Source: Marininema mesophilum
GTDB taxonomy: Bacteria > Bacillota > Bacilli > Thermoactinomycetales > DSM-45169
Assembly (NCBI RefSeq): GCF_900106775.1
Contig: NZ_FNNQ01000003.1
Span: 141,741 to 173,740, forward strand
Direction: 5' to 3'
DNA: 32,000 nucleotides
How positions within the stretch are numbered: the first letter of the stretch is position 1; each line of letters starts with the position of its first letter. The position numbers and the translations under genes are program-made. The notes under the pieces are model-generated. The model was not told the origin of the DNA. It ran no database searches and worked only from the letters and a program-made list of their open reading frames with translations. Positions 1-8,407 of this stretch are shown here, piece after piece.

Positions 1-1296
1 ACCGGGGCTACTGGAGCCACCGGAGCTACGGGAGAAACAGGAGCTACCGGGGCTACTGGAGCCACCGGAGCCACCGGAGCTACTGGAGCCACCGGAGCTA
101 CCGGGGCTACTGGAGCCACCGGAGCCACCGGAGCTACCGGAGCCACCGGAGCCACCGGAGCCACCGGTGCTACAGGAGCAACGGGAGAAACAGGAGCTAC
201 TGGAGCCACCGGAGCTACCGGAGCCACTGGAGCCACCGGGGCTACAGGAGCTACTGGAGCCACTGGAGCTACCGGAGCTACTGGAGCTACCGGAGCCACC
301 GGGGCTACTGGAGCTACTGGAGCTACCGGAGCCACCGGAGCTACCGGAGCCACCGGAGCTACCGGAGTCACCGGAGCTACCGGAGAAACAGGAGCTACCG
401 GGGCCACCGGAGCTACTGGAGCCACTGGAGCAACGGGAGAAACAGGAGCTACCGGAGCTACTGGAGCTACCGGAGCTACCGGAGCTACTGGAGCTACCGG
501 AGCTACCGGAGCCACCGGAGCCACTGGAGCAACGGGAGAAACAGGAGCTACTGGAGCCACCGGAGCTACCGGAGCCACTGGAGCCACCGGAGCTACAGGA
601 GCAACGGGAGAAACAGGAGCTACTGGAGCCACCGGAGCTACCGGAGCCACCGGGGCTACTGGAGCCACCGGAGCTACGGGAGAAACAGGAGCTACCGGGG
701 CTACTGGAGCCACCGGGGCTACTGGAGCCACCGGAGCCACCGGAACTACCGGAGCCACCGGAGCCACCGGAGCTACAGGAGCAACGGGAGAAACAGGAGC
801 TACTGGAGCCACCGGAGCCACCGGAGCTACCGGAGCCACCGGGGCTACTGGAGCCACCGGAGCTACGGGAGAAACAGGAGCTACCGGGGCTACTGGAGCC
901 ACCGGGGCTACTGGAGCCACCGGAGCCACCGGAACTACCGGAGCCACCGGAGCCACCGGAGCTACAGGAGCAACGGGAGAAACAGGAGCTACTGGAGCCA
1001 CCGGAGCCACCGGAGCTACCGGAGCCACCGGGGCTACTGGAGCCACCGGAGCTACGGGAGAAACAGGAGCTACCGGGGCTACTGGAGCCACCGGGGCTAC
1101 TGGAGCCACCGGAGCCACCGGAGCTACCGGAGCCACCGGAGCCACCGGTGCTACAGGAGCAACGGGAGAAACAGGAGCTACTGGAGCCACCGGAGCTACC
1201 GGGGCTACTGGAGCCACTGGAGCCACCGGAGCCACCGGAGCCACAGGAGCTACCGGAGCCACCGGAGCCACCGGAGCTACCGGAGCTACCGGATTA
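1..1296 (+). repeat. 9-bp (Gly-X-Thr) tandem repeat array, coding
   Basis: Continuous ggN-gcN/gaa-acN periodicity across the whole stretch. All three forward frames stay open because of the repeat composition. Confidence 0.95.
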
Positions 1297-1299
1297 TAG
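1..1299 (+). CDS. collagen-like Gly-X-Thr repeat protein, 5'-truncated by the window edge (BclA-like surface/exosporium fibre candidate)
   Basis: Frame 1 reads T-(G-X-T)n without interruption from nt 4 to 1290, about 143 triplets. X is mostly Ala, periodically Glu, with single Val and Thr. The frame then reads G-L-stop (TAG 1297-1299). Differences between repeat copies fall almost entirely on frame-1 wobble positions (gga/ggg/ggt, gct/gcc/gca, acc/act/acg/aca), so they are synonymous only in this frame. This frame has no ATG/GTG/TTG, so the ORF track lists only the out-of-frame 167..1366 ORF. A strong terminator follows. Confidence 0.75.
592..1158 (+). repeat. higher-order tandem repeat (one ~180-bp unit plus two 189-bp units) nested in the 9-bp array
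   Basis: The marker string gcaacgggagaaacagga recurs at 601, 781, 970 and 1159. The marker gctacgggagaaacagga recurs at 673, 862 and 1051 (spacing 189 bp). The frame-2 track translation shows the same 63-aa block three times. Confidence 0.85.
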
Positions 1300-1395
1300 G
1301 TGCTGCTGGAGCGACGGGTGCTGTACTAGGGTGAGATGGAGTTCTTTTTCCCGAAAAGGTAATTGATTAACTAACTCCTTGGGTATTACCAATTA

Positions 1396-1425
1396 ACGGA
1401 CTGTATATAATATACAGTCCGTTTT
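1396..1425 (+). terminator. rho-independent terminator of the collagen-like gene
   Basis: Perfect 12-bp stem acggactgtata / tatacagtccgt with a 3-nt loop, followed by tttt. Confidence 0.85.
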
Positions 1426-1784
1426 CGTGTGCGTAAGACAATCGATATTCTTTTGTTAAACTATTCATCATCGTCCGTTCCTCTTCTCGATGCATACGGA
1501 TTAGTTATTCTTTGAACGACCCATCGTAATGTTTCCTTGCTTTAGTAGTTCACCTATCGATTTTGAATGTCAGTATTACGAACAGGTCCAAGTTGCGTTA
1601 ATCGTAGGCTTTTACTTGGAGTGGCAGGCATGATAGGATGATTTGCCTCACGATGCAACTATTCATTTGCATTGCTCAATCCCAAGAACTCATGTCCGCA
1701 AAGGCTATGTCAGGCTTACACCGTCATAACAATCAGTATGTGTCCTTTCATTTTTTGTACGTTTTATTGACTCAGTATTAAGAG

Positions 1785-5666: not shown

Positions 5667-6965
5667 ATGCAAATTCCGCAAGAAATAGAGAATATGACAA
5701 CAGCTTGGAGAGGCCATGAGAAATTCGCTATATGGTTGATAAAGAAATTACAACCAAGTACTATAGTTGATTTAGGTATAGATTATGGATTTTCTACTTT
5801 TTCCTTAGCACTACCCAAGATAGGTACAGTTTATGGAATCGATTCTTTTCAAGGGGATCAAAATACGGGGTACCGAGATACTTATGGGGAGGTAATGAAG
5901 ACTAAAGCAGTTTTATATGAAAGATATGGTATAGAGGTTCAAATTATAAAGGATGATTTCACTAAAGTATCGAAAAAATGGAAAAAAAAGATTGACTTAC
6001 TACACATAGACGGTGGCCATACCTATTGCAGCGTTAAAACAGATTTTCTCCATTGGTTCCCTCATGTAAAAGAAAATGGGGTTATTTTGATGCATGATGT
6101 TGTTTCTTTTCCAGAAGTAAAAAAAGTATATCATGAATCCAATTTGTATCGTTGCTATTTTTCTCATTCAGCTGGATTGGGAGTTTTATCTAGAAATAAA
6201 GAAATAATTGAAACAATAGCAAATAAATACGATCTTGAAGTGGAATTTCCCGATCATCATAAAACCGTTTGTTTTATTCACACATGTACAATTAATAATT
6301 GGTTAGAAATATTAGCAAGACAACTAGAACGATTAAATTCAACAGGCTTGTATGAAAAATTAGATGCCATATTTCTTAATATTGCTACCGATCAAGTCAA
6401 TAAAAATGTAGATATTGTAGAAAGGTTGAATGCTAAGGGATTAGTGCGTAAATATGACAAAATTCAATTTTGTATAACGCATGACATCGATAGGTGGGAA
6501 AGATCAACTCTAGAATGGCTACATCAATACTGTAAAACAAGCACTCATAATGTGAGGGTCTTATATTTCCATACAAAAGGGGTGAGGCGATTTGGTACAC
6601 CTTATGAATCTAATGTATGCGATTGGATTAATTTAATGGAAACAGTATTAATTGATCATTATAAAATTTGCTTAAAATATCTAAAAGAGGTAGATATTTG
6701 TGGAGTAAATTATTCAGAATATCCAAAGTATCATTTTTCAGGAAACTTTTGGTGGGCTAATAGTGATTATATTAAGCAATTGAATGCGAAAATTGGGTCA
6801 ACTTATCATTGTCCGGAGTTTTGGGCTTTAAATCATGACTCTGTTAAATTTTGTTGTATTTTTGATTCAAAGATTGATCATTATCAGACTCCATTTCCTG
6901 ATAATCTCATTCCTAGACATTTCCAACCTACATTTTATGTAGGTACGGGTGCCAAATCAAGATAG
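5667..6965 (+). CDS. class I SAM-dependent methyltransferase (Methyltransf_24/CmcI-like) fused to an unassigned ~230-aa C-terminal domain
   Basis: The N-terminus (IVDLGIDYGFS...LLHIDGGHTY...GVILMHD) is typical of cephalosporin-hydroxylase-like/Methyltransf_24 sugar O-methyltransferases. I cannot assign the C-terminal half (YFHTKGV..., HFSGNFWWANSDYI). RBS aaaggagag. Confidence 0.7.
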   Translation: MQIPQEIENMTTAWRGHEKFAIWLIKKLQPSTIVDLGIDYGFSTFSLALPKIGTVYGIDSFQGDQNTGYRDTYGEVMKTKAVLYERYGIEVQIIKDDFTKVSKKWKKKIDLLHIDGGHTYCSVKTDFLHWFPHVKENGVILMHDVVSFPEVKKVYHESNLYRCYFSHSAGLGVLSRNKEIIETIANKYDLEVEFPDHHKTVCFIHTCTINNWLEILARQLERLNSTGLYEKLDAIFLNIATDQVNKNVDIVERLNAKGLVRKYDKIQFCITHDIDRWERSTLEWLHQYCKTSTHNVRVLYFHTKGVRRFGTPYESNVCDWINLMETVLIDHYKICLKYLKEVDICGVNYSEYPKYHFSGNFWWANSDYIKQLNAKIGSTYHCPEFWALNHDSVKFCCIFDSKIDHYQTPFPDNLIPRHFQPTFYVGTGAKSR

Positions 6966-7139
6966 TAGAGTCCGATATGCTGTGTTAAATAGGGTAGGTT
7001 GGAACATGACTTCGTACCATCTTACCGTAAATATAGAGGACATGATGGGTTGTTTCAGAACGTTCAGGGGATGGTTCGCTTACAATTAGAAGATGTTCAA
7101 GAATGATGGGATAAATAATAAAACGGGAAGTGGATAGCT

Positions 7140-7922
7140 ATGAAGCCAAAAATAGTATCGATTTCTAAAAGAAATGCTCATTTTAATGTATTATTCCATC
7201 CAAAGAACAGTTGGATATGGAATGATATTCATCGTAATAATTGGGAGGAATATACGTTTGATATTTTTGATAGATTTTTGAGTTCAGACCATACTTATCT
7301 GGATATAGGCGCGTGGATCGGACCTACAGTTTTGTACGCAGCACAAATAGCTAAACATGTATATGCAGTAGAACCAGATCCGGTTGCATTTGGGGAGTTG
7401 ACTACAAATTTTAGCTTAAACTCTGCCATCAGTTCAAGGATAACCCTAATAAATTCTGCGTTATCTACAAAAACGGGAATGACACATTTATATTCAAGAC
7501 ATTCTTTTGGTGACTCTGTCTCTAGCCTCATTCCCACGATTTCCGATCAATCATGTATTGTGGAATGTATTACGATAGCTGACTTGATTAGGAAATATAG
7601 TATTAAAGATTTAAATTTTGTTAAAATAGATATCGAAGGTGGTGAATATTTATTAATTCCACATTTGAGAGAATTTTTAGAAACAGAAAAACCAACTTTA
7701 TATCTATCCCTACATCCGTTATTTCTCAAACAAAATATCAGTCGAAAATGTCGTGACAAAACCGAAATTAGAAATTATTTTAATAAAATAACCAAAAATA
7801 TGATAGATTCACTACATATGTATAAATATAAATATGATAATTATGGCAATATTATAGAAGATGAAGTTTTGCTAGGTAGAGAGCAAAATGGAGAGTTTAT
7901 ATTTACAAATGAACGTTGGTAA
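7140..7922 (+). CDS. FkbM-family methyltransferase
   Basis: YLDIGAWIGPT (SAM motif I) plus the hallmark FVKIDIEGGEY motif of the FkbM/Methyltransf_21 family. Confidence 0.8.
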   Translation: MKPKIVSISKRNAHFNVLFHPKNSWIWNDIHRNNWEEYTFDIFDRFLSSDHTYLDIGAWIGPTVLYAAQIAKHVYAVEPDPVAFGELTTNFSLNSAISSRITLINSALSTKTGMTHLYSRHSFGDSVSSLIPTISDQSCIVECITIADLIRKYSIKDLNFVKIDIEGGEYLLIPHLREFLETEKPTLYLSLHPLFLKQNISRKCRDKTEIRNYFNKITKNMIDSLHMYKYKYDNYGNIIEDEVLLGREQNGEFIFTNERW

Positions 7923-8026
7923 TCTAGCCAGATGGGAGAACCACCTGCGTATCTCCACTGGATGGCACGTTTCACCAAATGAAACTAGTTGTTTTATTTG
8001 GATCAACTGATACAGGAGTGAATTAA

Positions 8027-8407
8027 ATGGCTTTTTATGACACAGGTCCCATACAGAATGTAAATACGGATGGTAGTCTGATTGCTACCAGTTTGCTTGT
8101 GAGGGTTGAAAATACAGGTTCAGGGTATCCCAACGCTCACGTTCAGGTATATCGCATACCAGGTGGAAATTCAGGTGGATTTTCGCAACAAATTATTTTC
8201 GCAGAAAACGTATTTTCTCTGCAACCGTCTGGTAATAAATCTGTCTTTACATTACCTCTTTCATTGAATCCAAGCATGCCTATCTTTGGAGTGAGAGTTA
8301 CCACTTCCCCAGATCCAGGTGCTGGAGAGGACGTTGTGGCCACTGTATTTACCAAAGATTCAATGGGTAATGTTGTCGCTTCTCAAAGAGCATTACCTGG
8401 AGAATGA
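8027..8407 (+). CDS. hypothetical 126-aa protein, no family recognised
   Basis: Good RBS (caggagtg, 7 nt, ATG). The composition is rich in beta-formers (V, T, S, G, N). There is no signal peptide or TM segment. The stop lies at the junction with the metE fragment. Confidence 0.5.

What the first reader, a model, noticed from the sequence alone, without database searches (positions are those of the whole stretch)
1..8407. Candidate fibre-plus-tailoring system: Thr-rich collagen-like gene followed by an AT-rich island of 3 GT2 and 3 methyltransferase domains
Seen in sequence: a collagen-like gene with Thr at every Y position (about 143 potential O-glycosylation sites in this window alone) is followed on the same strand by five genes. 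These encode GT2-TPR, a GT2-methyltransferase fusion, a small GT2, a Methyltransf_24-like domain plus an unknown domain, and an FkbM methyltransferase. Spot counts of single 60-nt lines gave about one-third G+C in the island and about one-half in the flanking housekeeping genes. The island contains an IS6 relic and ends at a metE scar. Established knowledge: in the Bacillus cereus group, the BclA collagen-like region (GXT repeats) carries O-linked oligosaccharides containing rhamnose, methylated deoxy-sugars and anthrose, and the glycan genes lie near bclA. Inference: this is a self-contained cassette that decorates the fibre with a methylated glycan. The three independent methyltransferase domains and two domain fusions suggest an unusually heavily O-methylated or otherwise uncommon glycan. 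No nucleotide-sugar biosynthesis genes (rml-like) lie in the window, so precursors must come from elsewhere.
Basis: partly seen in the sequence, partly recalled or inferred. Interest (0 to 1): 0.8.

Follow-up and report, generated by a model that had tools for sequence, protein, structure and literature searches.

The report
Collagen-like fibre gene with glycan-tailoring island
A Thr-rich collagen-like surface-fibre gene in Marininema mesophilum sits beside a horizontally acquired set of soluble sugar- and methyl-transferases that most likely coat the fibre with a methylated, probably rhamnose-containing O-glycan; this is a new variant of the glycosylated spore-fibre systems known from Clostridioides difficile and Bacillus.

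Summary
The window (Marininema mesophilum) opens inside a (Gly-Ala-Thr)n collagen-like ORF with 144 triplets that stops at 1299. Five same-strand genes follow: GT2-TPR, GT2-methyltransferase, a small GT2, Methyltransf_24 plus a second domain, and an FkbM methyltransferase. They lie in a low-GC mosaic island with an IS6 relic, ending at an internal metE fragment.

In 80 genomes carrying a GT2-TPR homologue, 49 have a GXT collagen-like gene in the flank, and 33 of these lie within 500 bp. The experimental precedent is C. difficile SgtA, which has the same GT-A+TPR architecture and adds beta-O-GlcNAc to Thr of the adjacent BclA3 collagen repeats.

It is homologous (32% identity, E 3e-36) to domain 2 of chlorovirus PBCV-1 A064R, a proven alpha-L-rhamnosyltransferase that A064R couples to a rhamnose 2-O-methyltransferase domain. 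So the island has four glycosyltransferase and three methyltransferase domains.

Priestia megaterium carries the same gene set next to rmlABCD and a (GAT)n collagen gene.

All the enzymes lack membrane segments, which fits direct cytoplasmic protein glycosylation.

Not testable here: the fibre's N-terminus, spore localisation, expression and glycan chemistry. The fibre lacks a BclA-type C-terminal domain.

The parts
1..1299 (+). 3' part of a collagen-like ORF. It is (Gly-Ala-Thr)n, 144 G-X-T triplets, and ends ...GATGL* with no C-terminal globular domain. The 5' end lies outside the window.
   Evidence: Pfam Collagen 1.3e-67; periods of 9/18/27 and 189 bp; variation is almost all at third codon positions; no BclA-C-like remnant anywhere in the window.
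1395..1428 (+). Intrinsic-terminator-like hairpin (13-bp perfect stem, 3-nt loop, then UUUUCG) about 100 nt after the collagen stop.
   Evidence: The simple terminator scan did not list it.
1794..2927 (+). GT2-TPR glycosyltransferase, the predicted initiating protein O-glycosyltransferase (SgtA-like). The likely start is TTG 1794, 7 nt after AAGAGGTGA. The ORF opens at GTG 1785, and NCBI's call (P0001) starts at ATG 1872.
   Evidence: GT2 3.9e-20; TPR_2 5.8e-05, below cut-off. (100% identity to a M. mesophilum protein; 3166 homologues, many named TPR-containing GT2). (invariant DTGSxD and LDADD motifs). (PDB GmaR 3.4e-25, SunS 1e-12). (no TM segment, 11 Cys).
3220..4569 (+). GT2-methyltransferase fusion: an N-terminal GT2 that weakly resembles rhamnosyltransferases, and a C-terminal class I SAM methyltransferase. 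Predicted to elongate and methylate the glycan.
   Evidence: TIGR01556 rhamnosyltransferase 65 bits, below its cut-off of 200. (homologues lie in 17 of the 80 GT2-TPR loci, most beside the GT2-TPR gene). (39% identity to the P. megaterium cassette gene). (GC3 0.38).
4594..4747 (-). IS6-family transposase relic in two frameshifted pieces (4676-4747 and 4594-4662), about 50 of about 235 residues.
4947..5567 (+). Small GT2 glycosyltransferase (206 aa, FVDDDD motif).
   Evidence: (70% identity to the gene at the equivalent place in the P. megaterium cassette L083).
5667..6965 (+). Methyltransf_24 domain (about residues 10-190) fused to a DUF8361 domain (about residues 195-432). DUF8361 is the A064R-D2-type glycosyltransferase, predicted to be a 6-deoxyhexosyl (rhamnosyl) transferase with a coupled sugar O-methyltransferase.
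   Evidence: (model pLDDT 94.6).. (BLASTP to PBCV-1 A064R residues 153-424, 32% identity, E 3e-36). (literature on A064R).
7140..7922 (+). FkbM-family (Methyltransf_21) methyltransferase.
8027..8407 (+). orf126, a small all-beta protein. Its family forms the N-terminal domain of YVTN-propeller and beta-helix proteins. It is remotely related to the N-terminal domain of collagen-like proteins that sit next to a GT2-TPR gene in Desulfosporosinus. It may be a fibre or surface component, or a truncated remnant.
   Evidence: (hhalign probability 93%, E 3e-07). (beta-sandwich model, no PDB match).
8427..8843 (+). Internal fragment of metE (cobalamin-independent methionine synthase), residues about 452-586 of 750. 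It marks the right edge of the island.

Best explanation
This is a surface-fibre glycoprotein locus of the endospore-former Marininema mesophilum. It consists of a (Gly-Ala-Thr)n collagen-like protein plus dedicated, soluble, cytoplasmic O-glycosylation machinery carried on a horizontally acquired, mosaic low-GC island.

Proposed mechanism (every step is inferred; only the homologies are shown):
1. The GT2-TPR enzyme (1794-2927) binds the unfolded or folding fibre through its TPR region. It transfers the first sugar from a UDP-sugar onto the hydroxyl of Thr at the Y position of the G-X-T triplets. C. difficile SgtA does this with beta-GlcNAc on BclA3.
2. The chain is extended by the GT2 domain of the GT2-MT fusion, by the small GT2, and by the DUF8361 domain. 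DUF8361 is homologous to PBCV-1 A064R domain 2, an inverting, metal-independent alpha-L-rhamnosyltransferase.
3. The three methyltransferase domains (MT11/23, MT24, FkbM) O-methylate the sugars. The MT24-DUF8361 fusion mirrors the D2 (rhamnosyltransferase) plus D3 (rhamnose 2-O-methyltransferase) pairing of A064R.

Nucleotide sugars, probably dTDP-L-rhamnose and UDP-HexNAc, must come from genes elsewhere in the genome. By analogy with BclA and BclA3, the glycosylated fibre is most likely displayed on the spore surface.
For: - Anatomy.
- GT2-TPR to collagen linkage: 49 of 80 loci have a collagen-like ORF in the flank. 33 lie within 500 bp, 39 are on the same strand, and 38 have at least 60% Thr at the Y position. 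Collagen is the top Pfam family among the upstream neighbours (25 of 140), and BclA_C also occurs there. Extra GT2/GT4 enzymes and methyltransferases are common downstream.
- The two closest GT2-TPR relatives also have GPT or GAT collagen genes within 5 kb.
- Experimental precedent with the same architecture and adjacency: SgtA is 358 aa, GT-A plus TPR, and adds beta-O-GlcNAc to Thr of BclA3 collagen repeats (PMC7157674).
- The nearest solved structures are protein- or peptide-directed glycosyltransferases: GmaR 3.4e-25 and SunS.
- DUF8361 equals A064R-D2. The A064R activities are described in PMC9614988.
- P. megaterium L083 carries GT2-MT, GT2-TPR (53% identity), small GT2 (70%), DUF8361 (61%), MT24 and rmlABDC, with a (GAT)n collagen gene on the same 25-kb contig. 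Croceifilum L084 has two MT24/DUF8361 pairs 4.5 kb from an 875-aa GXT collagen gene.
- None of the five enzymes has a membrane segment, and there is no flippase, polymerase or priming phosphoglycosyltransferase.
- MT24 homologues on proteobacterial plasmids lie under genes annotated 'rhamnan synthesis F family protein'.
Against: - There is no experimental evidence for this organism.
- The 5' end of the collagen gene is outside the window, so an intact start, a targeting motif and the promoter are unknown.
- The fibre ends 2 residues after the repeat, with no BclA-C/C1q-like trimerisation domain and no remnant of one. It could therefore be truncated or non-functional.
- A terminator-like hairpin separates it from the island, so the genes are not co-transcribed.
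- No sigma-K or sigma-E consensus was found in the island's intergenic regions.
- 17 of 46 full-flank loci with a GT2-TPR homologue have no collagen gene within 10 kb.
- The sequence of C. difficile SgtA could not be retrieved, so homology to it is inferred only from architecture and context.
- The GT2-MT gene differs in composition from the other four (GC3 0.38 against 0.23), and an IS6 relic splits the island, so the genes may not have arrived, or may not work, as one unit.
- No rml genes are in the window.
Confidence: 0.65

Rival explanations
1. The GT/MT island makes a different glycoconjugate (cell-wall polymer, S-layer or other protein glycan, or a small-molecule glycoside). It lies next to the collagen-like gene only because both landed in the same variable region.
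For: A hairpin terminator separates the units. The island is a mosaic with an IS6 relic and a metE scar. 17 of 46 full-flank GT2-TPR loci lack a collagen neighbour. GT2, FkbM and class I methyltransferases are generic.
Against: The GT2-TPR to collagen adjacency is about ten-fold above a uniform expectation. The small GT2, DUF8361 and MT24 genes recur near (GAT)n/GXT collagen genes in two other genera. There are no membrane proteins, lipid-carrier priming enzyme, flippase, polymerase or ABC exporter, so a wall or exopolysaccharide pathway is unlikely. There are no polyketide, NRPS or peptide-precursor genes.
Confidence: 0.15
2. The locus is decaying. The collagen ORF is a truncated pseudogene (no C-terminal domain, unknown 5' end) and the island is a non-functional relic of a transferred exosporium cassette.
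For: The fibre lacks the roughly 135-aa BclA-C-type domain that most neighbours in other genomes carry. The region holds an IS6 relic, a metE fragment and possibly a truncated orf126.
Against: All five enzyme ORFs are full length with intact motifs. The 1.3-kb repeat keeps its frame, and its variation is almost purely synonymous (3/14/158 by codon position), which indicates purifying selection. A proper stop and a terminator follow it.
Confidence: 0.12
3. The GT2-TPR enzyme belongs to a flagellin (GmaR-like) or glycocin (SunS-like) glycosylation system rather than a collagen-fibre system.
For: GmaR and SunS are the closest solved structures by sequence. TIGR04195 SunS is the best NCBIfam hit.
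Against: The SunS model scores 54.7 bits against a cut-off of 350. The window has no flagellar genes, glycocin precursor, peptidase-ABC exporter or thiol-disulfide genes. The protein is 377 aa and lacks GmaR's C-terminal anti-repressor region. Family-wide, the neighbour is a collagen gene.
Confidence: 0.03

Closest known systems
Clostridioides difficile SgtA (CD3350) with BclA3
   Same: A soluble enzyme of about 360 aa with an N-terminal GT-A/GT2 domain and C-terminal TPRs, rich in Cys (11 here, 10 in SgtA). It is encoded directly beside a collagen-like gene whose triplets carry Thr at Y. SgtA is shown in vitro to add beta-O-GlcNAc to those Thr residues (PMC7157674).
   Different: Gene order differs: sgtA lies upstream of bclA3, whereas here the enzyme gene is downstream and behind a terminator. 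The repeat is GAT rather than GPT. BclA3 has a C-terminal region after the repeats, which is absent here. The elongating enzymes are unknown in C. difficile, while here four candidate elongation/methylation genes are adjacent. Sequence identity to SgtA itself could not be measured.
Bacillus anthracis / B. cereus BclA with its rhamnose and anthrose operons
   Same: A Thr-rich GXT collagen-like spore-surface glycoprotein carrying short O-glycans that contain rhamnose and O-methylated deoxy-sugars, with glycan genes close to the structural gene (PMC12357932; PMC6222408 abstract).
   Different: There is no BclA-C (C1q/TNF-like) C-terminal domain and no rml or ant genes in the window. The N-terminal exosporium-targeting motif cannot be assessed. 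The organism is a Thermoactinomycetaceae member and is not known to have a B. cereus-type exosporium.
Chlorovirus PBCV-1 A064R (domains D2 and D3)
   Same: The DUF8361 domain aligns with A064R residues about 215-424 (32% identity, E 3e-36) and shares the HTKG and SGNFWW motifs. In both proteins this domain is fused to a class I SAM methyltransferase domain. In A064R, D2 is an alpha-L-rhamnosyltransferase and D3 methylates O-2 of that rhamnose.
   Different: The domain order is reversed (MT-GT here, GT-MT in A064R), and there is no D1. The MT24 domain matches D3 only weakly (E 0.025). A064R builds an N-glycan on a viral capsid protein using UDP-L-Rha, whereas a bacterial enzyme would be expected to use dTDP-L-Rha on an O-glycan.
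Priestia megaterium cassette on contig NVKN01000025 (locus L083), uncharacterised
   Same: The same gene families occur together: GT2-MT (39%), GT2-TPR (53%), small GT2 (70%), DUF8361 (61%) and MT24, on low-GC DNA (32.5%), with a (GAT)n collagen-like gene on the same contig.
   Different: MT24 and DUF8361 are separate, divergent genes. rmlABDC and further GT and NTP-transferase genes are present. There is no FkbM gene. The gene order differs. The collagen gene is 8 kb away and has a carbohydrate-binding-like N-terminal domain.

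Membership tests
SgtA-type protein O-glycosyltransferase (GT-A + TPR) paired with a collagen-like substrate gene | N-terminal GT-A/GT2 catalytic domain with a DxD motif | tested here: met
   Pfam Glycos_transf_2 3.9e-20. The DTGSxD and LDADD motifs are invariant in 16 homologues.
SgtA-type protein O-glycosyltransferase (GT-A + TPR) paired with a collagen-like substrate gene | C-terminal TPR repeats, about 360 aa in total, soluble | tested here: met
   TPR_2/TPR_1 hits at residues 284-312 are below the gathering score. Homologues carry TPR Pfam hits and NCBI's TPR-containing name. 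The protein is 377 aa with no TM segment.
SgtA-type protein O-glycosyltransferase (GT-A + TPR) paired with a collagen-like substrate gene | Gene adjacent to a collagen-like gene with Thr at the Y position | tested here: met
   The gap in the window is 495 bp. The pairing recurs in 33 of 80 loci within 500 bp.
SgtA-type protein O-glycosyltransferase (GT-A + TPR) paired with a collagen-like substrate gene | Sequence homology to C. difficile SgtA itself | not testable with these tools
   The SgtA sequence could not be retrieved. Peptostreptococcaceae members (Romboutsia, Paraclostridium sordellii) are in the family, but no C. difficile entry appeared in the top 120 hits or in the clusters examined.
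SgtA-type protein O-glycosyltransferase (GT-A + TPR) paired with a collagen-like substrate gene | Transfers beta-GlcNAc from UDP-GlcNAc to Thr of collagen repeats | not testable with these tools
   This needs an enzyme assay.
BclA-type exosporium collagen-like glycoprotein | Central (GXY)n region rich in Thr | tested here: met
   144 uninterrupted G-X-T triplets.
BclA-type exosporium collagen-like glycoprotein | C-terminal BclA-C (C1q/TNF-like) trimerisation domain | tested here: not met
   The ORF stops 2 residues after the repeat. tblastn with six C-terminal domains from neighbouring loci finds nothing in the window at E<0.1.
BclA-type exosporium collagen-like glycoprotein | N-terminal exosporium-targeting motif | not testable with these tools
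   The 5' end is outside the window. Exact-protein look-ups returned only short Logan contigs, and the genome scan did not return the source genome.
BclA-type exosporium collagen-like glycoprotein | Sporulation-specific (sigma-K/sigma-E) expression | tested here: inconclusive
   There are no consensus matches in the island's intergenic regions. The fibre's own promoter is outside the window, and the regex test is crude.
A064R-D2 / DUF8361 (PF27674) glycosyltransferase family | Sequence homology to PBCV-1 A064R residues 213-438 | tested here: met
   BLASTP gives 32% identity, E 3e-36, with window residues about 195-413 aligned to A064R 215-424. The A064R ORF was identified by its D1 matching PDB 2P6W over all 211 aligned residues (E 1.3e-147). 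The precomputed Pfam hit is PF27674.
A064R-D2 / DUF8361 (PF27674) glycosyltransferase family | Family motifs and fold | tested here: met
   G-N-x-W-W and a downstream Glu are invariant, and H-x-K-G is nearly invariant, across 44 sequences. The model has pLDDT 94.6. Foldseek against BFVD gives E 1e-22, TM 0.78, to a 638-aa chlorovirus protein. PDB gives only weak GT-A matches.
A064R-D2 / DUF8361 (PF27674) glycosyltransferase family | alpha-L-rhamnosyltransferase activity | not testable with these tools
   The activity is known only for A064R (PMC9614988).
IS6 family insertion sequence | Intact DDE transposase of about 235 aa with terminal inverted repeats | tested here: not met
Only about 50 residues remain, in two frames. 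They are 61% identical to annotated IS6 transposases.

The most novel reading that the evidence does not exclude
The DUF8361 glycosyltransferase with its partner Methyltransf_24 methyltransferase may be a conserved bacterial 'add a 6-deoxyhexose and O-methylate it' capping module. The two are fused here, and are adjacent or divergent genes in Priestia and Croceifilum. The module would serve the O-glycans of spore collagen-like fibres and would be the bacterial counterpart, and plausibly the evolutionary source, of domains D2-D3 of chlorovirus A064R. Together with the SgtA-like initiator, this island would then encode a complete, transferable, membrane-independent pathway for building methyl-rhamnose O-glycans on G-X-T repeats. 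That would name candidate enzymes for steps that remain unassigned in C. difficile.
Probability: 0.35. Interest if true: 0.6.

Novelty: new variant of a known kind. Interest (0 to 1): 0.45.

Why it matters
Glycosylated collagen-like fibres form the outermost, antigenic and adhesive layer of spores in pathogens such as B. anthracis and C. difficile. In C. difficile only the first enzyme (SgtA) has been identified, and the authors could not find the enzymes that elongate the glycan (PMC7157674).

This locus, with its counterparts in Priestia and Croceifilum, offers a compact and experimentally tractable candidate set: an initiator, three elongating glycosyltransferase domains and three methyltransferase domains, all soluble.

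It also gives a first biological context for the bacterial members of DUF8361, a glycosyltransferase family so far characterised only in a giant algal virus. No paper in the held library mentions DUF8361.

The survey further suggests that the pairing of a GT2-TPR gene with a GXT collagen gene is a general feature of endospore-forming Bacillota. It also indicates that these genes are often cut off at contig ends in draft assemblies.

Tried and rejected
1. Reading the fibre's 5' end. Exact-protein look-ups for four window proteins gave nothing or only short Logan contigs that break in or before the repeat.
2. Retrieving C. difficile SgtA. I searched with a Romboutsia homologue and inspected large clusters. 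Romboutsia, Paraclostridium sordellii and Clostridium appeared, but no C. difficile.
3. Sporulation promoters. Regex scans for sigma-K and sigma-E consensus found nothing in the island's intergenic regions. Sigma-70-like and terminator counts are no higher than in shuffled sequence.
4. Rfam. No family reached its gathering score anywhere in the 32 kb, so no S-box was detected near metE or metK.
5. PDB fold search for DUF8361. It gave only weak generic GT-A matches (GtrB, E 4e-4, TM 0.44). The informative match came from the viral library.
6. PDB fold search for orf126. No match was significant.
7. Plasmid search for the MT24-DUF8361 protein. Only the MT24 half matched, and no plasmid carried the full cassette.
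8. Remnants of a BclA-C-like or known N-terminal domain in the window. None were found.
9. Conserved chromosomal position. No metK, metE or comFA lies near the GT2-TPR or DUF8361 genes in any of the 82 loci checked, so the insertion site is specific to this lineage.
10. Glycocin (SunS) and flagellin (GmaR) readings were rejected on context and scores.

Full report
**Source and anatomy**

The GT2-TPR protein is 100% identical to a protein named from Marininema mesophilum, a member of the endospore-forming Thermoactinomycetaceae.

Frame 1 is open from base 1 to a TAG stop at 1297-1299. It reads as 144 uninterrupted G-X-T triplets (GAT 128, GET 12, GTT 2, GVT 1) and ends GATGL*. Pfam Collagen scores E 1.3e-67.

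All three frames are open through the repeat. Frame 1 is the real one because non-consensus bases fall 3, 14 and 158 times on codon positions 1, 2 and 3. The Gly-Ala-Thr reading is therefore under purifying selection. Relatives also show GXT regions in frame with globular end domains.

The repeat has a higher-order 189-bp unit in about 6.9 copies.

About 100 nt after the stop there is a perfect 13-bp hairpin followed by UUUUCG. The fibre gene is therefore probably its own transcription unit.

**The island**

- GT2 plus weak TPR at 1785/1794-2927. The best start is TTG 1794, behind an AAGAGGTGA ribosome-binding site.
- GT2 plus Methyltransf_11/23 at 3220-4569.
- A small GT2 at 4947-5567.
- Methyltransf_24 plus a second domain at 5667-6965.
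- An FkbM methyltransferase at 7140-7922.

GC is 0.31-0.36 over most of the island, against 0.43-0.53 downstream. GC3 is 0.23 for four of the genes, 0.38 for the GT2-MT gene and the fibre gene, and 0.42-0.47 for housekeeping genes. The island is foreign and mosaic.

A frameshifted IS6 transposase relic lies on the minus strand at 4594-4747. It is 61% identical to annotated IS6 transposases on Bacillus and Priestia plasmids.

The island ends at an internal metE fragment covering residues about 452-586 of 750.

The rest of the window is housekeeping: metK, comFA/FC, an ABC transporter, hpf, secA, prfB and argCJBD. No rml-like genes are present.

None of the five enzymes has a membrane-spanning segment (maximum Kyte-Doolittle 19-residue mean 1.13 or less). 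There is also no priming phosphoglycosyltransferase, flippase, polymerase or exporter.

**Is the fibre-enzyme adjacency meaningful?**

I aligned 16 GT2-TPR homologues and scanned one genome per GTDB species. This gave 590 confirmed matches, of which 80 loci were kept with up to 10 kb of flank on each side.

- 49 of the 80 loci contain a collagen-like ORF of at least 15 triplets.
- In 33 loci it lies within 500 bp of the GT2-TPR gene.
- In 39 it is on the same strand, and in 35 it is upstream.
- In 38 at least 60% of Y positions are Thr.

If placement in the flanks were uniform, about 3 of the 49 would fall within 500 bp.

Among loci with full flanks, 29 of 46 have a collagen gene. Several loci without full flanks end inside a collagen repeat right next to the GT gene.

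An independent Pfam count of the two upstream neighbours puts Collagen first (25 of 140) and also finds BclA_C (6). The downstream neighbours are enriched for further GT2/GT4 enzymes and class I or MT24 methyltransferases.

The two closest GT2-TPR relatives also have GXT collagen genes close by. In Staphylospora marina (60% identity) a GPT collagen gene lies 184 bp away. In a metagenome contig (65% identity) a (GAT)n gene with a BclA-like C-terminal domain lies 4.3 kb away.

**Precedent and mechanism for the first step**

C. difficile SgtA is a 358-aa GT-A plus TPR protein with 10 cysteines, encoded directly upstream of bclA3. In vitro it uses UDP-GlcNAc and Mn2+ to add beta-O-GlcNAc to Thr in peptides from the BclA3 collagen repeats. 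The authors could not find the elongating enzymes (PMC7157674).

The window protein has the same architecture, size and context, and 11 cysteines. Its closest solved relatives by sequence are protein- or peptide-directed glycosyltransferases: GmaR (3.4e-25) and SunS.

I could not retrieve the SgtA sequence. Homology to SgtA itself is therefore inferred, not measured.

The C-terminal half of the 5667-6965 protein is PF27674/DUF8361. This is a small bacterial family with 78 hits. It occurs alone or fused to MT24, GT2, GT10 or RgpF domains.

An AlphaFold model has pLDDT 94.6. It finds only weak GT-A matches in the PDB. Against the viral library it gives strong matches to chlorovirus and other giant-virus proteins, with E 1e-22 and TM 0.78 to a 638-aa protein.

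A scan of IMG/VR returned the PBCV-1 genome (330,611 bp). Its 638-aa ORF is A064R, because its first 211 residues match the PDB chain 2P6W (E 1.3e-147).

BLASTP aligns window residues about 195-413 with A064R 215-424 at 32% identity, E 3e-36. That region is domain D2.

According to PMC9614988:
- D2 is an inverting, metal-independent alpha-L-rhamnosyltransferase that founded a new glycosyltransferase family.
- D3 is the methyltransferase that methylates O-2 of that rhamnose.

The window protein is thus a reversed-order analogue (MT-GT). Its MT24 domain matches D3 only weakly (E 0.025).

**The second half of the island recurs with collagen genes**

In Priestia megaterium locus L083 the same families cluster on 32.5%-GC DNA: GT2-MT (39% identity), GT2-TPR (53%), small GT2 (70%), DUF8361 (61%) and MT24. 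They sit beside rmlA/B/D/C, and a (GAT)n collagen-like gene runs off the contig end.

In Croceifilum oryzae, another Thermoactinomycetaceae member, two divergent MT24/DUF8361 pairs lie 4.5 kb from an 875-aa GXT collagen gene.

The rml linkage, the A064R homology and the MT24 homologues annotated 'rhamnan synthesis F' together point to a methylated rhamnose-type sugar. This is inference.

**What does not fit, or is unknown**

- The fibre has no BclA-C-type C-terminal domain, and no remnant of one exists in the window. It is therefore not a BclA family member in the strict sense. Trimerisation and anchoring would have to rely on an unseen N-terminal domain.
- The 5' end could not be obtained.
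- No sigma-K or sigma-E consensus was found in the island.
- The chromosomal site is lineage-specific.
- About a third of GT2-TPR loci have no collagen neighbour.

**Extra ORF**

orf126 (8027-8407) has only 12 detectable relatives. Most of them are the N-terminal domain of YVTN-propeller or beta-helix proteins.

A profile of the family matches the N-terminal domain of Desulfosporosinus proteins with the architecture NTD-collagen-YVTN, which sit next to a GT2-TPR gene (hhalign probability 93%, E 3e-07).

The model is a beta-sandwich with no PDB match. orf126 may be a surface component or a truncated remnant.

**Verdict**

It is a new variant of a known kind, namely glycosylated collagen-like spore fibres with adjacent tailoring genes. 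Interest is moderate. The system type is established. The enzyme set, and the link between bacterial DUF8361 and the chlorovirus rhamnosyltransferase/methyltransferase pair, are not described in the held literature.

Noticed in passing
window 8027-8407: orf126 is a 126-aa all-beta protein with only 12 detectable relatives. In most of them the domain is the N-terminus of YVTN beta-propeller or beta-helix proteins. A profile of the family matches the N-terminal domain of Desulfosporosinus NTD-collagen-YVTN proteins next to a GT2-TPR gene (probability 93%). The domain has no PDB counterpart.
   Followed up: partly
window 8427-8843 and 8844-9315: Only an internal piece of metE survives, with both ends gone, so cobalamin-independent methionine synthase is lost at this site. 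No S-box/SAM riboswitch reached Rfam's gathering score upstream of the metE fragment or metK, although Bacillales commonly have one there.
   Followed up: partly
window 10636-11025: A 129-aa ORF between metK and comFA has a strongly hydrophobic N-terminus (KD19 1.97) and a weak match to the first about 50 positions of the GT2 profile (E 4e-4). It may be a short membrane protein or a GT2 fragment.
   Followed up: no
L085-L164 (IMG/VR loci): DUF8361 is very common in giant-virus metagenome bins and some phages. It is far more common there than in the bacterial protein hits (78).
   Followed up: partly
P0002, P0003, P0005, P0018, P0067, P0103: In relatives the GT2-TPR enzyme is often fused to a second GT2 domain (about 610 aa) or to a Methyltransf_11 domain (about 565 aa). 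These are Rosetta-stone fusions linking the initiator to the same kinds of partner that are separate genes in this window.
   Followed up: no
L006, L018, L050, L052, L057, L058, L069, L083: Draft-genome contigs repeatedly end inside the collagen repeat right next to the GT2-TPR or cassette genes. Short-read assemblies therefore systematically truncate these fibre genes, and annotation pipelines probably under-count them.
   Followed up: no
window 1-1293: The collagen repeat has a higher-order 189-bp (63-aa) unit in about 6.9 copies at 86% match. This suggests recent tandem expansion, so fibre length may vary between strains.
   Followed up: no
L036 (Brevibacillus), L039 (Thermoactinomyces), L084 (Croceifilum): Several long collagen-like proteins near GT2-TPR or DUF8361 genes share an N-terminal motif, ...EELGLSHI(L/I)NAEGEK(I/L/V)QY(A/V)LGT(L/I)PG.... 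I did not identify this domain.
   Followed up: no
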